From assembly GCF_009834535.1 (NCBI RefSeq), contig NC_045696.1:45882001-45946000 (forward strand): DNA of 64,000 nucleotides, in the 5' to 3' direction. The position numbers and the translations under genes were made by a program. Every line of letters starts with the position of its first letter. Position 1 is the first letter of the stretch. The notes under the pieces were generated by a model, which saw only the letters and a program-made list of their open reading frames with translations, made no database searches and had not been told where the DNA came from. Of this stretch, positions 20,050 to 57,079 are shown piece by piece. The stretch comes from Camelus ferus (Eukaryota).

Positions 20050-22200
20050 AACTGTAGCATAAAACACAAAGACCTACATTCTCATGGACAGTTTAACTAA
20101 AAAGGAGATAACAATAACATATATTTAGGTTGGTCTTCACTTTAACTATGGACCAAAAAAAAATCTTTCCTTGGAATTATAACCAAGAGCCTGATTTTGT
20201 GAGTTTGTATGTGAATTTACACTATCCACATGATCCAGAAAAACCAAGCTGAGAAAACTCAGCAAAAATGGTCCTGGTTTTTAATTACCCTATGAGTTTA
20301 TTAAAAAAAACAAAAAGGCAATCTATTCTTAAACAACTTAGGTGGTTTAGGATTAAAACGGGTAATAGCAAGCGCTTCAAACATTTGCTCACAATCCACA
20401 ATTTCAAAACACATGAGGAGATTAACAACCATGAATAAGCAGAAACAACCACAATGGGTTTAGAACTCAAGGGTTTCAAATATTTAAGTTATCAAAAAAA
20501 CTATCATAAAATAATTATGCTTAAAATGATAGAAATAAAGGATAACTGAAAATATGAATTATAATATACAATTTAAAAAGAACAGATGTATTTAAAATAG
20601 GAAACAGAGTACTTTAGAAATTAAATGTAATGTATTTCATTGCAATTAAAAATACAAAGTATAGGATAAAGGGCAGATTAGATACAAGGAAAGAATTAGT
20701 TAACTGCACTAAAGAATTATCTAATGTAATTTCCTAAAGTACAGTATAGAAAGACAAAGTTTTGGAAAATATTAGAGACAGTTTAAAAGCATTGAATGAT
20801 CAAGTCTAAAAACACCAAATCGCAGCACTAGAAGAGAGAAGAGTACATGAAGGAGAATCAAGATTTAAAGCTAAGAGGTTTACAGATTGAATTAGACACT
20901 TGTATTTTCAAGTAAAAGCACAATTTGTTCACACTGAACTAAATAAAAGCAAGTCATAGCTCAACTGATCAAGTTGAAACTACAGACTATAAACACTAAG
21001 AGAAGATCTTAAAAGCACCTAGAGACAAAAGGCTGAATTCTTCAAAGAAACAGAAACCAGAATGAAAAAATGTTCAATATAAATAATGGAAGCCAGAAGA
21101 CAGTGGACTAACATTTTAAAAGTATGGGAGATTAACACTTATAAAAATCAGATTATTTGTATATATTTGTATTCTTGACTATATAAATATAATTAAGAAA
21201 AAGGGTAAAATCAAGGCATTTTTAGACAAACAAGTTAGAGCTTTTATCACCAACAAATACCATTAAAGAAGTTCTTAAAATATATCTTAGGGAGAAGGAA
21301 AATAACACCAGAAGGAAAGTCACAAATATATATTAGAAATATTAAGTAAATATAAATATAAATATAAAAATTAGAATAGCAATTTCTAATTTGAAAGTCA
21401 CAAATATATATTAGAAATATTAAGTAAATATAAATATAAATATAAAAATTAGAATAGCAATTTCTAATTTGAGGGTTAAAAAAACACAGAAGTACTGGAT
21501 AATTATGATACAGAAGAGGAGAACATGATGATTGAAACCAAAGTTTTCTTAATTTCTTGGACTGCTGTGGAAGTTGAATATGTATATTATAATTTTAAGA
21601 GTAAACTTTAAGAGTATATAGATCTAAAAATAATAAGAAGTTTTATATTCCACCAATAAAGGCAACTACTTTCAGAGCAATTAGCAATATCTAGCAATTC
21701 TGAAGAGTTTATACCTACTACTCAGAGGCATATTTTTGAGTATATAAGCAGATAAATGATCATACATGTTCTTAAGGAGATATTTCAAAAAATAATACAA
21801 TAATAAAATTTATTAACAACCTAAATGTCTATCAAAAGAACAGGCAAATGTATTTTGACATAATCATACATTAAAATGTTAAACAATAATGAAAATGAAT
21901 TCAACAATATTCAAAATAGAGAAATCATAAATATTTTGGGCAAAAACCTACATACTCAATGATTCCACCTATAGAGAGATGAAAACATGCAAGGTAAGAC
22001 TACAAACTTTATAGGGCTATATATATATTGAGCAAAAATATAAAGAAATAGATGATATTGATAAACATTAAAACTGAATTAATGGTTTCCTCTACCAGGA
22101 AGTAAAAGTGATTCAATTATTTTATTTCTTAAATAGTGAGAACATACATGTTCCATAAATACATCTTTTATAAAATTCTACCTGTCTATTATTTCATAAT
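20050..22200 (+). mobile_element. Ancient L1M/HAL1-like remnant
   Basis: Strongly A-biased; motifs agaagatcttaaaagca, aatggaagccagaagacagtgga, acaacctaaatgtctatcaa. Confidence 0.6.
21315..21472. repeat. Perfect 78-bp tandem duplication
   Basis: Units start at 21315 and 21393 (gaaagtcacaaatatatattag...tttctaattt) and are identical. Confidence 0.95.
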
Positions 22201-22958: not shown

Positions 22959-23056
22959 GGGGGAGGGTATAGCTCAGTGGTAGAGCACATGCCTAGAATG
23001 CAGGAAGTCCTGGGTTCAATCCCCAGTATCTCCATTAAAAAAGAAAGAAAAGAAAA
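22959..23056 (+). mobile_element. tRNA-derived camelid SINE (Vic-1-like)
   Basis: GGGGAGGGTATAGCTCAGTGGTAGAG (A box), GGGTTCAATCCC (B box), A-rich tail. Confidence 0.9.
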
Positions 23057-30265: not shown

Positions 30266-30874
30266 TGTCGACTGAAGGAGAAACACACAACCTAATAGTT
30301 TCAAGTTAAGAGATTTTTTTTGGTTTTGTTTTTGGGCAGGGAGTAATTAGGTTTTTACTCATTTATTTTTAATGGAGGTACTCAAGATTGAACCCAGGAC
30401 CTCATGCCTGCTAAGCACGTATTCTACCACTGAGCTATACCCTCCTCAACTCAAGCTTTATTTGGGGACCTTACTGAGGTCTATAGCCCGGAAGAAAGCC
30501 TTTCAGATAGCTCTGAAAAACTGCTCTGAAGACGTAAGGTAGGAGCCAGGATACATGTAAACTTTTTCTGCTGGAAAAAAAAAATGTAGTCAAACATCAA
30601 ACGATTACTGCTAATTACAAAGAACAGACATCTCAAGTTAATGGTTTTAGTGCTCTTCTATCAATGTATAAGAAGATATGAGAATCTGGGGTCACTGAAA
30701 TTATTCCTTAGACTTGCATCTTAACTATCTAGGGCCAGTATCCAAAGCACAGAATGCTTCCTGTTCTTTCTACATCCTAAATTCCCCTCAGGGTATACAC
30801 TGGTGGGCAACTGCAGTGGCTAACGGCTTGATTCTTGAACAACTGGAAAGGTAGGCAGCATTCTTTTCTTTACA
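30266..30874 (-). mobile_element. ERV1-type solo LTR interrupted by a SINE
   Basis: TGTCGAC...TTTACA termini, TTTATT at about 30457, 4-bp TSD-like ctac/ctat. Confidence 0.8.
30313..30447 (-). mobile_element. tRNA-derived camelid SINE (Vic-1-like)
   Basis: gattgaacccagg...ctaccactgagctataccc is the reverse complement of the 22959 element, with a T-rich tail. Confidence 0.9.
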
Positions 30875-31227: not shown

Positions 31228-32590
31228 TTGCGTTAATTTCCTATTACTGCTATAACAAGTTACTTAAAACAACATAGATTTATTATCTTATAGTTCTCAA
31301 GGTCAGAAGTCCAAAATGGATCTTACTGAGTATAAAAACCAAGGTCAGCAAGGCTGCATTTCTTTTCAAGGCTCTAAAGAGAAGCCAATTCCCTTGCCTT
31401 TTCCAGATTCTAAAGGTCACCTGCAACCTGGACTCATGGCCCCTTCTTCCATCTTCAAAGCTAGCAGTGTAGCATTGATGCCGAGAAGGACCCTGTGCGG
31501 CACGACCACCCCTCAACTACTGCCTCTTGTTTACAGAAAAGCTGGAGTCTGCGAGGCCTCCCTAAAGTCATAGAAGGGCAGGCTCAAGCAGTTGATTATG
31601 ACAAACCTGCAGGCATCAGGGGATGGCAATGACTCTGACCACCTATCTCAACAATTAACTGAGATTATTCCCCTAGCTCCCTTTAAAACTTTCACGGCTG
31701 AACAGAATCTTTGGAGATGGTTTTCTGGGGGAGACGCTGGGGTCGCCAGATTGCAGGCATTCTGAATAAAAGCAACTTTACTTTTTGTGACCAAGGTTGT
31801 TGCTTCCAGGATCATACCCTGCCCCTGCCTTGAATAGAAACCAATTACTCTTATCTAAGTCTCAGGAGGCAGCTGCAGAGAAGAAACAAGAACTGGTTAG
31901 AATCCACGGCCCACGATGAAGGATTTGACTTCCAGTGGACCTCGAGCTTCATTATACGGTCACTGTAATGTATAAACACGCTAAATGACACACCCACCAG
32001 TGCCATGACAGTTGACAACTACCATGACAACCAGAAAAGCCCATACAAGGACGACTGGTTCCATCACAACCAGCAGAAGGACATGATGGTAGAGGCCTCT
32101 CATAAAAATCCACGTGGCCCAGCCGGGCCAGAGCTGTCACTACCAGCCATCTCGGCTGATATCTTCCCCGCTCAAGTTCTTTTCTTCCCTTCTCCCTGCT
32201 TGAGCATTTTCCTTCCTTTTTCTTTTTTGAGAAATAAAGCAGCTTTTTCATTTTGTCCCTCCGCCTCTGCTGCAAAATTTTTCACAGCTGGAAGCAAGGA
32301 CCCACACTCTGGTGGGACTCCAAATTTAGGGGTCTCACTATCCACTAACAGCATCATCATCTAATCTCTCCCTCTAACTCTAACCACCACTTCTGCCAGC
32401 CTTTTCTTCTTTTAAGGATCTTTATGGTTACACTGGGTTCATTCAAATAATCCATGAATAATTTCTCAGTCTGCAGATCCTTAGCTTATTAACATCTACC
32501 AAGTCCCTGTTCCCATGTAACCTAACATATTCACAAGTACCTGAAGATTAGGACATGGACACCTTTGGAGGACCATTATTATGCCTACCA
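31228..32590 (-). mobile_element. MLT1B/C-type MaLR LTR split by an ERV1 LTR insertion
   Basis: tttcctattactgctataacaa...ccatcttcaaagctagcagtgtagcat, resuming after 32350 and ending attatgcctaccaca. Confidence 0.85.
31476..32350 (+). mobile_element. ERV1-type LTR insertion, apparently a composite of two LTR modules
   Basis: TG...CA termini; GCAT duplicated at 31472-31475 and 32351-32354; AATAAA at 31765 and about 32233; U3 core homologous to 1274-1370. Confidence 0.8.
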
Positions 32591-48920: not shown

Positions 48921-49624
48921 AAAAATAAGTAAAAATAAAACAGCCGACATCAATAACTGCATATATATTGCTGCTTACCCATAAACATTAGATTATAAAC
49001 CTATTTTTTGAAAACATTATCAAAAACATATTATTTATATTTTTATGTTAAAAAATAAAACAGATGCCAAAAATACATAATTATAATTATATAACACAAT
49101 TTTTAACGTAATTCAACATTAGTCCTCCAATGTACTTAGTCAATATCCACATCAGATAATTTTTTGTATCCTAAACCAAATTAAGAAAATCACTTACTTC
49201 AAGGAGATTCATCTGTCCTGTATTTATGAACTATTCACAAAAATTGATAACAAGCCACAAAGAAATAATTAACATATTTAAAAAATATATACAGTAAGTG
49301 GGTTGATTACTGTGAGAAAAGGGCCAATTACAGAAGTTTAGACAATATATCTACAATAATACAGAGATTAAAATCACAATATAAAATGTTATAATATGAC
49401 AAATCATTACTTTTCTTATGTAAAGAACTGACACAAACAAATAAATAAAAATAAAAGATCCTCCTATCTGTCATGGAAAAATACCTGAAGAATAATTTCT
49501 TAAACTTCTTGGTTGAAGAAGTAGTTGAAATAGTAAAAATAAATGTGTAATAAACACTTGAACAAATGTTCAACATCACTAATAATCACTTACTTGGTAA
49601 ATTAAATCACTATAATCCAATTTT

Positions 49625-50354
49625 TTTGTTTTTGAGTAAAGGTAGATTTATTCAAAGAGATACACTGAAAGGCAAGAGAAAGGCCAGAAGGTGTGGGGGT
49701 TGGGTGCTCAGATTAAAAGTAGGTACACACTCCACAGACAGAGGGCAGGCCATCTCCACACGGAGGGAGAGAGGTGGCCACGAGGCAGCATGTTACTAGT
49801 TTTTATGGGATCGGTGGCTTAGAGAATGACAAAAGATAGAGGGGAGAAAAGCCTTGGGCTCAGTGGGCTCCTTCACAGCTAGAGAGCTGGTCTCTGCCAG
49901 ATCCTGCAGGCAGTGTCAGCCACCAGCTAAGAGCTACTTGAATCTGCACGGCGCGGGATAAACCCCCTGCCACCCTCCAAAGAGAGGGGAGCTGCAGCCC
50001 AATAGGGAGATCGAGACTATGCCCTTTGAGCCCTGTTTCTTTATGTAAATGCCCCACACGTTGGGCACCAGAGATGATGCAGGAAAACGGATATGGGGCG
50101 TGAGAAGGGCCATGTCCCAGGCTTCGGTTGAGCCCCTGGGATGTGCCCCACCAAGTGTGAGTCCTTGGCTTCACGCAGGAAAGAATTCAAGAGCAAGCCA
50201 CAGTTGAGTAAAGGTAGATTTATTCAGAGAGATACATTAAAAGGTAAGAGAAAGGCCATGAGGTGTGGGGGGTTGGATGCTCAGATTAAAAGTAGGTACA
50301 CACTCCATAGACAAGAGTGCGGGCCGTCTCCAAACAGAGAGAGAGAGGCGTCCG
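49625..50354 (-). mobile_element. Processed (L1-type) retrocopy of a short ERV transcript: R-U5-PBS-leader / U3 end-R-poly(A)
   Basis: R 50354-50205, U5 to 50075, PBS 50070-50051, leader to about 49821, U3 end with CATAAAA 49807-49801, second R to 49634, A tail; TSD ctataat(c/a)caatttt at 49610-49624 and 50355-50369. Confidence 0.9.
50051..50070 (-). promoter_or_regulatory. Retroviral primer-binding site, tRNA-Lys-like
   Basis: TGGTGCCCAACGTGTGGGGC, 4 nt after the LTR end GCATCA; the Lys1,2 PBS is TGGCGCCCAACGTGGGGC. Confidence 0.75.
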
Positions 50355-53312
50355 CTATAATACAATTTTAGTGCACAAAATAAACAATGATTAAAAAACA
50401 AGAACATCCAGTTCTGGAAATGGTGCATTGAAGCAAGGCACTCCCAACCACAACTGATAATAGCCTAAACTGATACAATTTTTATGAAGAACAATCCAGT
50501 CATTAGTTGCTTGGAAACTATCCAAAACCTGTGACCACGTGATTCTGTTTAAAGCTCTGTTTTATGAAATTAAACTGAAAAGATCATTTATGTCAACATC
50601 ACCTATTACTGAATTGCTTGTTACCAGTAAAACACTGGACACAACATAAATATTCAACTTTGGGAAATGATTAAATTCAATCCTGATATATGAATAATAA
50701 AGATTTTACAAAGATTTTTAAATATTGTGAACAACTGTCTATGAAATGGTATTAATAAGAAAGGATACACAAATATTCATTATATTCCCAACTACATAAA
50801 ATGTACTTCGAAGAAGCCTGGAACACAATATTCCAAAAAGTTGAGAGTAACTCTGGCTTTATAGAAGTACCATGAGAGATTTAATTTGTTTTTGCTTTGC
50901 ATGTTTTCAAAACAAATCTGCGTCACTACTATTAGAAAAGACAAGGAGAGAAAATGTTTAAAACATTTAGAAGGAAAAAATAACAAAGAAATATTAGCTT
51001 CTGGCAAGCATTAGTATAATGAAAGGAAGGTAAAAATTAATTTTAAAAGCTTGCTTAAAATTTTTTACTCATTTTCTTTTATGTAATGATTCACTAACTG
51101 ATCTGTTAAAATTCTGTACAAGATTTGTTTTTTTTTTAAATCCTGAAAATCTGAGTTATTCTTTTTAAGAGACTATGATGACTATACACCTACTTGTTTT
51201 CCTTTCATCCTTGCCTACCAGGAAGTACAAGGTCAAGTGTCCTTCTGAGAAAAACAATTATGATATTCTATTTTCTTAACATACTTATATACATACCTAG
51301 CCTACTGCCACTGTCATCTTTATCTTCATCTTCTTAACAGGTTTTATGACAGATTTCTTACAGCAGATGCTGCCATACTATATATATATATATATAATGT
51401 AGAATATTGGGAAACAATTTAAAAGAATTGGCATGGTGATGAGAAATGTTGAATAGTCAATTTGGAACAGAAGTTTTCAACTTAATGGAAGTTTAAAAGT
51501 AAAACTAAATTTAATCAATGTTTTTTACCTTAAATTGTGGGCTCAAGGTAAATTTTAGTTTTTAAGCATAAAGATTATGAAGGTGACTAGAAAGAGAGGC
51601 AGGGAAAACCATTTTCTCTGCAAGAAAAATTGAGCTTATTGCACGTATGGAGAGCTCGTCAATAGGATTAACAGTTGAAGTGCTTCTGATTGTATTATTT
51701 GTCTATGCATACTATTACTCTGTGGCAGCTTTCTCTCATAAAAAAGTCCACTCTTTTATCCTAATCTTGAACAAGTCTTCTCTCTCTGATGTAAAAAGCT
51801 TTCTACCTAATAAATAAGTGAGCTGCTGAAGTGTAGAACAATAAGGTGGCTGCCTTTCATCACCTTCCTAGTTGTGCTTGGGTCTGCTTTCTGTATAAGA
51901 GGATGGCTTACAAATGTCAAGGTTCCATTTCCATCAATTCTCTTCAGGAAACAAATTAGGAAATCTCCTTCAGACTATGTTATCATCATTGTCTGTTACC
52001 AAACTATGGCCTTTTTCTAACATAATTTGATCACTTCTAAATTACACCACATTTTGAATATTCTTGCATCTCTGCGCTACAAATATTGTAATATCATTTC
52101 CCTGTCTTTCAGAGTAAAGCTATGAATTCACTTTTTAAAAATGTTTTTAAAATTTTTTCCCAAAGTGGAATTAAATAATTGTTTGTATTACTCTCAACAA
52201 ATGACAAGAATGATTTAGAAGGTTATAGCTTTATCCCTAGGAATATACATATGCCTTCATATACAAACTCTAAAAAATGTCAGTGTAGCCTGGAAGATTA
52301 ACATTAATCTTCTCAAATTTCGCAAGGGACAAAAATGAGAGTGTTAGCTACTGTGTGAGACTTAGGTGATGTCAGACACCCATATAAAGCATAAAAACTT
52401 TGGTGCTTTATTCGTGATAATTTAGATAAATGTTTGTAATTGTTTTTCCAAACTCAACGTTCGTTAGATTGTTTGGTTGTTATATGAACTGGCTTAGGGT
52501 ACTAATATCTAGAACTTGGAAATTAGTAAAAAAATATTTATGTGAATTGGTCATTTTACCTTTTTAATATTTTATACATAAATTGATTAAAATAATTTCA
52601 AACACACATAATACATAGTTTTCCTGTGCAAAATTAAGACATTGTGAGATTAAAGAAAATGTTGACAACAAACTTAAATTTCAGGGTCCTCCCAAGAGGT
52701 ACCCAACATTAGCAGTAGAGTTTGCATCCTTCTCATTTTTATAGATTTATGTAGAAATACTAAACATGAGATATAATACTATATATGTATTTAATATGTA
52801 TATAAAAGCATATAGTATTTTACATGTATTATATATACATAAACACTAATCCATAAACCTTCCAATAGCAATGTCAGAATGTATCTATTACTACCACTGA
52901 GAATGAGCTTTTTTTCATCTTCCATGATTTACTTACGTAAGTGTCCCCTCCACTTTTTCCCTATAAGGTTGTTTTATTTATTCGTGGAGCTTTCTGTATA
53001 TTCTAAATATTCGTATTTTCATATTATCTATGTTTCAAATATTCTTATATTTTTATTTAATATTGTAAGGTGTCTCTTGTAGTTGAATTTTAATTTAATG
53101 TCAATTTTCCTTCATAAGTTTTGGTTATTTGACTTATTTTAGAAGGGTTTTTTCCAGCCTAAAGATCAAATATGCATTCTTCTATATTGTCTTCCCATAT
53201 TTTTTATAATTTATTTTCACATAAATATATTCAATGTTTAAGTTATTTTGTGAGTTGTGTGAATATCTTAAAAATTTTGTGGAATACATACCAACTTATT
53301 ATCTTATTTACT

Positions 53313-53452
53313 TTATATACATATTTTTTAATATTTTGTGGAGGAGGTAATTAGGTTTGCTTACTTATTTTTAGAGGAGGTGCTGGGGATTGAACCCAGG
53401 GCCTTGTGAATGCTAAGCATGCACTCTACCACTTGAGCTATATGGCCCCCTC
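53313..53452 (-). mobile_element. tRNA-derived camelid SINE (Vic-1-like)
   Basis: ggggattgaacccagg...ctctaccacttgagctata; 16-bp TSD tattatcttatttact at 53297-53312 and 53453-53468. Confidence 0.92.
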
Positions 53453-54294
53453 TATTATCTTATTTACTGAAAAATCTATTCTCCCTACTTATCTAAAACG
53501 TACCCTTTATAATATGTCAAATTCAGAGAGGGCAAGAGAGAAATTAACATTTTCGGGCTCTTTACTCCATTTATCTATTTTCTAATATTTTTTCATTTAA
53601 TAATTACTTAATTCCTATTTAATTGCTATAATTTTTTTTAATGTTTTAATAGGGCATGCTTCTACCACTGCTTCTCTTTCAAGATTGTCTTGGCTATTTT
53701 TTCAATTTTTACTTATAAATTTTCATCAGTTTCTGAAGTTCATGGGGAAAAAATCTATTAATTTTGAATGGTTTGACTTTAAATTATAGATCTAAAGTAG
53801 ATTTGCTTTATGAGAATTAAAATATTTAAAATTATAAATTACCTCACCCATAAAATATTCTTTCTCTCCATGTATGCAGCTCTTCTAATAAAATTCCTTA
53901 ACATTTTAGATATTTAAAAAAATTTAATCCTGAGTTTCTTGGACATTACTTACTGGCTTTTTTCTTGGGCGCTTTACAGTTTTGTGGGATTTTTTTGTTG
54001 TTGCTATTAGCTATTTTTATTTGGATTATTAATACTGCATTCCCTAGCTTGTTAAGTTCACACATAGGAAAGTAATTACTTCTGTATGTTGATATTTTAT
54101 CTAGCTGCCTTGATGAATAAGTTCATGAGTTCTGATAGCTTGTCAGCTGATTCATTTGGATTGTCTATGCGACAGTCATCTTCTGCAGGTTATCCAGTTA
54201 CACTGTTAGTGCTACTGTCTCATTGACTGGGCCTCTGGTGCCCTGTTAAATAGTCACAGTAATAATGGCCCTTCTTTCTCGTCCCTTTTTCAAA

Positions 54295-54345
54295 TTTAAC
54301 AGGATGCATTTTTAACAGGATGCATATACATTTAACAGGATGCAT
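54295..54345. repeat. Three near-tandem copies of tttaacaggatgcat
   Basis: Copies at 54295, 54311 and 54331. Confidence 0.9.
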
Positions 54346-54590
54346 ATTTTTATAGATTTTTGTAAAAAACCTTCATCAAGATAATAACAACCCTTCTAGT
54401 CCTTGTTTGCTGAAGTATGCATTTAAGTTTTATTTAAAAGTTTTTTTTATGTCCTTTAGTATGTTTATTACTTTGACAGGTATTGTTGTTGAACCATTTG
54501 TTATATTATTGGGGTAACATTGGATGTCCATGATATATTTTAATTTCAATGAACTGCTTGATGTTATTTATAAATGTTTTATTTCAAATT

Positions 54591-54757
54591 CTCTCTCTCT
54601 CTCCCTCTTCGGAGATGGCTCACATTCTATGGAATGTGTACCTACTTTTAATCCGAGCACCCGACCCCAACACCTCGTGGCCTTTCTCTTGCCTTTCAAT
54701 GTATCTCTTTGAATAAATCTACCTTTACTCAACAACAACAAAAATAATGAAATAAAA
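54591..54757 (+). mobile_element. LTR R-region-only retrocopy with A-rich tail (SINE-like)
   Basis: Matches R of the solo LTR (~1526-1664); AATAAA 54712-54717; homology stops at ...ctttactca, then acaacaacaaaaataatgaaataaaa. Confidence 0.85.
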
Positions 54758-57079
54758 TTGTGCATCTATGTTTATATGTTTTTTTGCGTGAACCTACATA
54801 TTTTCTCTTTATCAGGTTTTTAAATATTTGTACTCCCTCTTTCTTGCCTTATATTGAATCAATCAGCTTTTCTTTGTTTCTTGTAGTTTTATTAATGATT
54901 GAAACTTAAACATTGATTTTTCTTCTTCTAGTAGTAACTTTAACTTTTAAACTACTCCTTTATAATGAATTGCAACTCTATTGTTCCTAACAATGGATGG
55001 CATTAAACTGTGTACCTATCATTTCTTCACTAAAAGCCAAGACTGATGGTAGCATATTTATGCTTTTATTTACCATCATTTGCCATGTTGATACCACCTG
55101 GAAATTTTTAATTATAAATAATTAATTTTTGAAAAAATAATTACAGTCAACTCTTATTTAGAATTTACAACAGTTCTGACTAATTTAGTTGCTTATCAGT
55201 GCTTTGGTATCCATCTTCTTCCTCTTGGATCCATATCTGGCTTCTTGCTGGAGAACATCCAGCAGTAATTCAACTTCTGTCTATAAGTGATACATTTTCT
55301 GAATCATTCTGTATACAAAACAACCCTAGTTCTCTAGCAGATGACCAGATAAGGAATTATACATTTAAAGTTATTTACCTTAAAGTGGACTTGTCTCTTA
55401 TTTTCTTGCATCTAGTTAATCTAGTGAATTCTGAGGTGAATCTAATTTCATCTTGACCATCATTTCCTAGTAAACAATCTCTTAGTCTCCTTCTCTGGAA
55501 GCTTTTATGGGTTTGTCTCTGTCCATGGTGCTCTAAACTTCATCAGGATGGATGGTGCTCTGAGAGCTTTCTCCAAGTCCTACTCAGTGCTCCCAGGGGA
55601 TATGTGCTTTCAATCTGAAGACAAAGTGTTCCCCAATTCTCAGAAAATTTTAACAGTTCTTTCATTTAATATTACTTATTACTTCTTCTCCACTCTCTTG
55701 TTCTGAATCGTTTAGTATATGAAGTTTGAAACAGGAGATTACCTTACCCTTCATACTTTTCATCTCTTTTTTTTGTTTTGAATTCTCTAAGAATTCTTCA
55801 GGTTTTTTTTTTCTGTTGTTGTTTTGTTTTGTTTTTTACTGTATAAATTCACCCTGCTTCAGGGACCATTCTGTTCTGCTTAGTTCCTCTATTTTGCTGT
55901 TCTGTGATTGACCAATTTTTATTATCAGTGTAAAATAATTGATTAAGTTTTAGGTATCAATATCCTCTTGCTAAAATAAATTGTTAATTTATTGCAATAT
56001 CCTCTTGCTAAAATAAATAGTTTTTTAAAAATCCTGTGCAAAAAGAAATCCTTTACTCCTTGTTCTAACAACTCTGTTTCTTTGGGTTTCAGTTCTTCTG
56101 TTTATCATCTTTTTTGTCTCTCTTTAATGGTGATGAATTTATCTGAATACTTGATAAATTTTTATCGTGTGTTCCTTTTAAAAGAGGAGAGTCTCTGCTA
56201 GGGAACCTGCTGCAGCACTTCCTTGTTTTTCTTTACTATACCAAAATCTTGCGTCTGCCCTAGCAATGATTTAACGCTGACTGACAGAACAGCTAATAGA
56301 AAGATAAGCTTTACTGTGTGATTCACGTGCTGCCACCTTTAGCTGTCTAAAGAGAATCTGGGTGCACTTTGGGCCTTAAAATAAAATAATAACATAGAAA
56401 AGAATATCTGCTCTACCTAGAAGACAAAAACAAACAATTTCTTAGAGAACTCTGGGTAGAATTATATCACCACCACATTCTAGTATAAAAGTGACAGTTT
56501 CAAAAACTTCTTGTTATAAAAATCATGGTGGGAATATTTCACTTCAGGTAGAGGGCTTTTATTTCAGCAGGCCTTCTTTAGGCTACTCCATGAAAAGGAG
56601 TCTGATAGGAAAAATGCAACCTCTGGCATTTGGAACCTTAGCGCCTTGCAGAGTCAAGAAGAGAAAAGCAATTTCAAAATGAATTGTTCTAAAATTAGTG
56701 TGATTTAACTTTGCAAGAGGTACTAGATCAAGCCATCTAATCTTTGTGATCTTCTACTAACATTTAGAAACTGAGATTTATCATAGTAATACAAACATCA
56801 CAAGGTTTTGTGAAGACTAAGTGGGTGCATATATCTGATTTTATTTTTTATACACAGTAAAATCTTCTAAAAGTCATTTGCCAAGTATGTAGGCCCTCAA
56901 TATCAAAGAAACTACACGTTATTAACTACTGTTAAGTGAAATTATAATAAAATTTTCAAATTTATTTTTGCTTTTGTGTGTAACTACCTCTTTCTAACCC
57001 ATAGCTTTTTCATATAGAGATGAACAGTTATTATTTCCTCAATGTTCTTCATATTCCAATCTGAAGATTCAATTATAAA

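What the first reader, a model, noticed from the sequence alone, without database searches (positions are those of the whole stretch)
54577..54759. R-only, A-tailed LTR fragment behaving like a Pol II-derived SINE
Seen: about 140 nt matching only the R region of the same LTR family. It starts within a few nt of the inferred transcription start and ends at the same ...ctacctttactca cleavage point as the 49.6-kb copy, followed by a CAA/A-rich tail. It interrupts an old L1. Inference: an LTR that initiates and polyadenylates within itself makes a ~140-nt RNA that L1 can copy. Two such RNA-derived copies within 5 kb hint at a high genome-wide copy number, i.e. an LTR-R-derived SINE-like family with solo LTRs as source genes. 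The TSD is only aaatt/aaatt, and a 5'-truncated copy of the longer RNA cannot be excluded.
Basis: partly seen in the sequence, partly recalled or inferred. Interest (0 to 1): 0.75.

Follow-up and report, generated by a model that had tools for sequence, protein, structure and literature searches.

The report
A-tailed copy of LTR R region
A 140-base piece from the middle of a retroviral long terminal repeat sits here with a decayed poly(A) tail, most likely pasted in from a very short RNA by the LINE-1 machinery; this is the route already known for the tarsier's TINE repeats, and whether it forms a large family in this genome is still open.

Summary
54591-54731 is only the R region of an LTR family that also occurs in the window as a solo LTR (1177-1794) and as a 720-nt R-U5-leader-U3-R retrocopy (50352-49633, A tail, 17-nt TSD). 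The copy starts within about 5 nt of that retrocopy's 5' end (28-30 nt after a TATA-like box), ends 14-16 nt after AATAAA, and has an A-rich tail and a 5-nt TSD. A random 5' truncation would stop there in 0.6-3.9% of cases, so an RNA both started and polyadenylated inside one LTR, then copied by L1, is the best reading (0.6). That mechanism is already published for tarsier TINE1-3 (PMC5059674). Rivals: collapse of a two-R retrocopy to one R (0.17), and truncation (0.17). The claim of a high-copy family is untested: no genome is held, and only assembled contigs were served. They show a large LTR family but cannot show ends. The TSD is weak and short for an L1 trans copy. The host L1 is a recalled resemblance that Pfam and PDB searches did not confirm. 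The scan's notes held no earlier finding of this kind on other DNA. Verdict: a candidate camelid counterpart of TINEs; modest interest.

The parts
54586..54590 (+). 5' copy of 5-nt target-site duplication (AAATT); junction reads TC/AAATT, close to but not the canonical TT/AAAA L1 site
   Evidence: chance 6.9%
54591..54731 (+). R-only LTR copy: CT tract to the CA cleavage site; homology may run to 54733
54712..54717 (+). AATAAA polyadenylation signal, 14 nt before the CA
54732..54754 (+). decayed A-rich tail, (CAA)n then A-rich, 16 A of 23
54748..54757 (-). 10-nt perfect inverted copy of the left flank 54577-54586 at the end of the tail; possibly a templated junction insertion
   Evidence: 668/20000 and 464/20000 shuffles; 12/1141 local 40-mers; found after the fact, suggestive only
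54755..54759 (+). 3' copy of the TSD (AAATT)
1177..1794 (+). solo LTR of the same family (TG...CA, 618 nt): U3 to ~1519, TATA-like CATAAAAA 1492-1499, R ~1520-1664 with AATAAA 1645-1650, U5 1665-1794. This is the type of locus that could make the R RNA; it is not shown to be the source.
   Evidence: contig cover rises in the bin 1156-1180 and falls to near zero after 1805
49633..50352 (-). 720-nt processed retrocopy: R (50352-50205), U5 (to 50075), PBS-like site (from 50070), 230-nt leader without a purine tract, last ~40-45 nt of U3 from 49820, R (to 49633). Its 5' end marks the transcription start.
49608..49632 (-). A tail (49632-49625, 7 A of 8) and 3' TSD (49624-49608) of the 49.6-kb copy; the 5' TSD is 50369-50353, 15 of 17 identical
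54340..54860 (-). host sequence, probably ORF2 of an old L1 (bounds approximate), interrupted by the R copy
   Evidence: recalled resemblance of the frame; not confirmed

Best explanation
A TINE-like retrocopy. An LTR of this family carries a TATA-like box in U3 and AATAAA inside R (shown). Pol II starts ~28-30 nt after the TATA-like box (inferred from the 49.6-kb copy's 5' end). When the R poly(A) site is not suppressed, as expected in a solo LTR that lacks the downstream leader, cleavage 14-16 nt after AATAAA gives a ~145-nt polyadenylated RNA that is R alone (inferred). L1 ORF2p copies it by target-primed reverse transcription into an AT-rich site, leaving a tail and a TSD (tail and repeat shown, enzyme inferred). 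The copy has no promoter of its own, so it is a dead retropseudogene and the LTRs are the sources.
For: Both ends coincide with RNA ends: the 5' end is within ~5 nt of the 49.6-kb copy's start and the 3' end within 2 nt of its cleavage site. A random truncation would end in a 12-nt window there with probability 1.7% (uniform over the 720-nt RNA) or 0.6-3.9% (geometric, means 140-2000 nt). L1-type copying of this family's RNA is shown independently by the 49.6-kb copy (A tail, 15/17 TSD). The same route made 29,041 TINE1/2 (26,938 full length) and 1,668 TINE3 in tarsier (PMC5059674, passages and supplement legend). Retroviral LTRs with AATAAA in R give short polyadenylated RNAs when suppression by the downstream splice donor is missing or incomplete (PMC3694450, passages). 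The family is large: 7358 and 6919 contigs from two DNA runs of two organisms lay on the solo LTR.
Against: Only one R-only copy is in hand (1 of 3 family insertions in 64 kb). The first ~5 nt of the RNA are missing. A 5-nt TSD is atypical for L1 trans copies, full-length or truncated (PMC2912911, passages), and could be chance (6.9%). No RNA of this size was seen, because no raw reads were served. The final structure is the same as a collapsed two-R retrocopy would have. The 49.6-kb copy shows that the 5' R site can be read through despite an intact AATAAA.
Confidence: 0.6

Rival explanations
1. Solo-R by collapse. A 49.6-kb-type RNA has R at both ends. Either the inserted copy later lost everything between its two R repeats by recombination or single-strand annealing, as solo LTRs do, or L1 reverse transcriptase jumped from the 3' R to the 5' R of the same RNA. 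Both give start-site R + tail + TSD without any R-only RNA.
For: The required precursor type exists 5 kb away, with two R copies 572 nt apart start to start. Recombinational loss between terminal repeats is the rule for ERVs (PMC11359688, passages). Of five 2:2 columns inside R, one groups the copy with the 5' R and two with the 3' R.
Against: The repeats are only ~145 nt, and the 49.6-kb copy kept both while they drifted to 90% identity. The five 2:2 columns (two group it with the solo LTR) show no clear 5'/3' chimera. No direct evidence.
Confidence: 0.17
2. Ordinary 5'-truncated processed copy of a longer RNA (the 720-nt RNA, a proviral RNA, or a host RNA ending at a solo LTR's poly(A) site) that happened to stop at the CT tract.
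For: The first ~5 nt are missing and the junction is in a CT repeat. Short TSDs go with truncation in L1 itself (PMC2912911). L1-processed ERV copies are known from HERV-W (135 of 213 loci; PMC5016936, passages). The odd tail end hints at an irregular integration.
Against: Chance of stopping there is 0.6-3.9%. The same paper finds short TSDs rare in truncated trans copies. In the folds, pairing near the 5' end spans about nt 10-25 in this copy and nt 2-33 in the 49.6-kb 3' R, so a stall would be expected further 3' (inference).
Confidence: 0.17
3. Not L1 target-primed: capture of an R RNA or cDNA at a double-strand break, with a templated filler.
For: Short TSD, near-canonical rather than canonical site, and a 10-nt inverted copy of the flank in the tail (p about 0.01-0.03).
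Against: The break is exactly at the poly(A) site with an A-rich tail, there is a direct repeat on both sides, and the junction is endonuclease-like.
Confidence: 0.06

Closest known systems
Tarsier TINE1/2 (from LTR77_TS) and TINE3 (from a MER83B-like LTR); PMC5059674 (passages, supplement legend), PMC5322556 (passage)
   Same: LTR TATA box starts the RNA, the LTR's own poly(A) signal ends it, L1 is the proposed mobiliser, and the copy is short, A-tailed and has no promoter.
   Different: Different lineage and LTR. TATA to poly(A) signal is ~153 nt here against ~80 nt. Tens of thousands of copies were counted there, one is seen here. This family also makes long two-R retrocopies.
HERV-W processed pseudogenes (PMC5016936, passages)
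   Same: The 49.6-kb copy has their structure: 5' R-U5, 3' U3-R, poly(A) tail, TSD. The 54.6-kb copy shares the 3' end.
   Different: Those are kilobases long. The 49.6-kb copy is 720 nt without genes, purine tract or most of U3. No R-only class appeared in the passages read.
tRNA-derived SINEs, such as the copy at 53.36-53.45 kb in this window
   Same: Short, non-coding, A-tailed, L1-type insertion.
   Different: No A or B box in R, whereas the same patterns find both boxes in the 53.4-kb SINE. The copy cannot be transcribed by itself.

Membership tests
TINE-type LTR-derived retropseudogene | Sequence is only the LTR segment between start site and poly(A) site | tested here: met
   first ~5 nt missing
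TINE-type LTR-derived retropseudogene | Source LTR has a TATA box upstream and a poly(A) signal inside the copied segment | tested here: met
   solo LTR 1492-1499 and 1645-1650
TINE-type LTR-derived retropseudogene | L1 hallmarks: A tail, TSD, TT/AAAA-like site | tested here: inconclusive
   tail 16 A of 23; TSD only 5 nt (chance 6.9%); site near-canonical
TINE-type LTR-derived retropseudogene | Many full-length copies with the same ends | tested here: inconclusive
   no genome held; contigs cannot show ends; 1 copy in the window
TINE-type LTR-derived retropseudogene | Short Pol II RNA exists | not testable with these tools
   only contigs were served, no raw RNA reads
SINE, strict sense | Internal Pol III promoter (A and B boxes) or tRNA/7SL/5S head | tested here: not met
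   no box match in three R copies, both boxes found in the control SINE (box patterns recalled); no Rfam match at gathering score in 49400-55000
HERV-W-type processed ERV copy (49.6-kb element) | R-U5 5' end, U3-R 3' end, poly(A), TSD of 5-15 bp or so | tested here: met
   TSD 17 nt with 2 mismatches
Named Repbase/Dfam camelid LTR family | Sequence identity to a library entry | not testable with these tools
   no repeat library is held; resemblance to MER41-like ERV1 LTRs is recalled only

The most novel reading that the evidence does not exclude
Camelids independently evolved a TINE-like family: a thousand or more R-only, A-tailed copies made from LTR RNAs by L1 and hidden inside LTR annotations, beside a 720-nt gene-less two-R RNA that L1 also copies. 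One LTR family would then feed L1 with both the suppressed and the unsuppressed poly(A) product, and part of the R-only class might arise by an undescribed collapse of two-R copies.
Probability: 0.3. Interest if true: 0.55.

Novelty: new member of a known kind. Interest (0 to 1): 0.35.

Why it matters
If many such copies exist, TINEs are not a tarsier oddity but a repeatable route from an LTR to a short L1-spread repeat. The copies' ends would map the start and poly(A) sites of an old germ-line LTR promoter, the ratio of R-only to long copies would record how leaky poly(A) suppression was, and LTR counts in camelid annotations would need correcting. A single copy is an ordinary retropseudogene.

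Tried and rejected
Genome-wide count: no genome is held. Collection scans with R motifs: metagenome 0 loci, then 19; genomes 1; viral 1. None of these 21 loci aligns to the LTR over more than 25 nt, so all were set aside as chance.

Contigs of 4 of the 24 listed runs were laid on the solo LTR. Summed depth did not fall across the R/U5 boundary (R/U5 ratios 1.00, 0.92, 1.22, 0.79), table 6 listed no pile of ends, and none of the 24 loose ends shown (1166 hidden) was an A tail at ~1665. This gives no sign that R-only copies swamp LTRs, but the tool states that contig depth is no copy number and cannot rank parts or show ends, so I treat it as inconclusive. The two RNA libraries cover U3 as well as R and U5 and may hold DNA: no evidence of transcription.

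Host L1: Pfam and PDB gave no L1 match; the two hits (E 0.6) are chance. A longer decayed TSD was sought and not found. Chimera test: too few informative columns. R RNA fold: z -2.3 for this copy, -0.4 to -1.3 for the other three, no shared structure. Rfam: three matches, all below gathering score.

Earlier scan notes: nothing by sequence, place or words; one search gave six unrelated notes. Ten paper searches listed no report of R-only copies in camelids. Repbase, Dfam and most subscription journals are outside them.

Full report
What is there. The window holds four copies of one R region in three insertions. (a) A solo LTR at 1177-1794, TG...CA, with a TATA-like box at 1492-1499, AATAAA at 1645-1650 and the CA at 1663-1664. 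Its flanks match at only 3 of 5 positions. Contig cover rises in the bin 1156-1180 and is near zero after 1805, which agrees with these bounds. (b) A 720-nt element on the minus strand, 50352-49633: R, U5, a PBS-like site, a 230-nt leader with no purine run of 9 or more and no GTRAG, the last ~40-45 nt of U3, R again, an 8-nt A tail and a 17-nt TSD with 2 mismatches. This is the structure of HERV-W processed pseudogenes (PMC5016936, passages). (c) The finding: R alone at 54591-54731, tail to 54754, AAATT on both sides. The R copies are 88-92% identical to one another.

The ends. The 5' end of (b) lies 21 nt before the GGAGA anchor, which puts it 28-30 nt after the first base of the TATA-like box in (a) and in the 3' part of (b). 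I take that as the transcription start (inference). Copy (c) starts 20 nt before the anchor but lacks the first ~5 GC-rich bases and has extra CT units. Its 3' end is at the same CA, or 2 nt later. If (c) were a random truncation of a longer RNA, it would end in a 12-nt window there in 1.7% (uniform) or 0.6-3.9% (geometric) of cases. These are simple models and ignore any hot spot at the CT tract. Of the 11 family variant positions inside R shown (162 more rows of that table were hidden), (c) carries the other letter at 8, so many of its differences from (a) are family variants and not private decay.

The weak points. The TSD is 5 nt and a random local 5-mer occurs in the tail region 6.9% of the time. 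TSDs of 9 bp or less are rare in copies moved in trans by L1 (PMC2912911, passages). The end of the tail, 54748-54757, is a perfect inverted copy of the flank 54577-54586 (668 and 464 of 20000 shuffles; 12 of 1141 local and 15 of 6346 window-wide 40-mers). This may be a templated filler made at integration, but it was noticed after the fact. The host L1 is recalled from the frame printed; Pfam and PDB did not confirm it.

Mechanism. LTRs with AATAAA inside R must suppress it in the 5' LTR. In HIV-1 and foamy virus this depends on the splice donor and U1 snRNP, in MoMLV on a weak site; loss or leakiness of suppression gives short, cleaved, polyadenylated RNAs (PMC3694450, passages). A solo LTR has no leader behind it, so an R-only RNA is an expected product (inference). 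L1 copying of such RNA is the published model for tarsier TINEs: the LTR's TATA box starts the RNA, its signal ends it, and 29,041 TINE1/2 and 1,668 TINE3 copies were counted (PMC5059674: passages; supplement passages and part 1 of 7; the figure itself was not visible. PMC5322556: passage). I give this 0.6. Collapse of a type (b) copy to one R, by recombination or by a reverse-transcriptase jump between its two R ends, leaves the same structure (0.17). Plain truncation gets 0.17, capture at a break 0.06.

Copy number. No genome is held. All 24 runs listed were assembled contigs. Four were laid on the solo LTR at 80% likeness: 7358 and 6919 contigs from DNA runs of organisms A and B, 2087 and 411 from two RNA libraries, covering U3, R and U5. 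The LTR family is therefore large and present in both organisms. The share of R-only copies could not be measured, because contigs do not show ends and their depth is no copy number. One R-only copy among three insertions bounds the share only to 0.8-91%, and the window was picked because of it.

Known or new. The mechanism is known. Ten searches listed no camelid case. The camelid repeat survey PMC8605555 (passages) mentions clusters of short non-coding ERV1 elements in alpaca, and the passages read name no R-only copies. PMC6726744, PMC10362595, PMC11727581 and PMC11359688 (passages) added names or background only. Repbase and Dfam could not be searched, so an entry may exist there. It works like a TINE; membership of a multi-copy family is not shown; it is not a SINE in the strict sense. 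No family consensus or dating against one was made, so the age of the copy is left open.

Verdict: real feature, new member of a known kind, interest 0.35. If a family of a thousand or more copies is shown (probability 0.3), interest 0.55.

Noticed in passing
window 49820 (minus strand): In the 720-nt copy the leader joins U3 at an AAG shared with the solo LTR (1479-1481), dropping the purine tract and ~300 nt of U3. It may be a splice into U3 or a deletion. The copy still holds the TATA-like box, R and AATAAA, so it could itself make an R RNA.
   Followed up: partly
window 50070-50051 (minus strand): The PBS-like site resembles a tRNA-Lys site with 2 extra bases, while the LTR resembles MER41-like ERV1 LTRs; both resemblances are recalled and untested.
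   Followed up: no
window 54748-54757 and 54577-54586: 10-nt inverted repeat between tail end and left flank, possibly fold-back copying of the nicked target strand before the RNA was copied.
   Followed up: partly
window ~31478-32350: Another LTR-like element whose part at 31922-31997 is 79% identical to U3 of the solo LTR (1287-1362), with no match to R.
   Followed up: no
window 53375-53447 (minus strand); relatives at 22962-23051 and 30330-30445: tRNA-derived SINE copies with A and B boxes (weak Rfam tRNA match, E 0.11). The passages of PMC8605555 report nearly all camelid SINEs as MIRs.
   Followed up: partly
window 21315-21470: Perfect 78-nt tandem duplication (two copies, 100% identical), recent or an assembly artefact.
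   Followed up: no
window 54298-54347: Three near-identical ~15-nt units (tttaacaggatgcat) in the host sequence, a small local duplication.
   Followed up: no
solo LTR positions 1363, 1632, 1734: The best-supported loose ends carry alternative LTR-like sequence, pointing to subfamilies with length variants in U3, R and U5.
   Followed up: no
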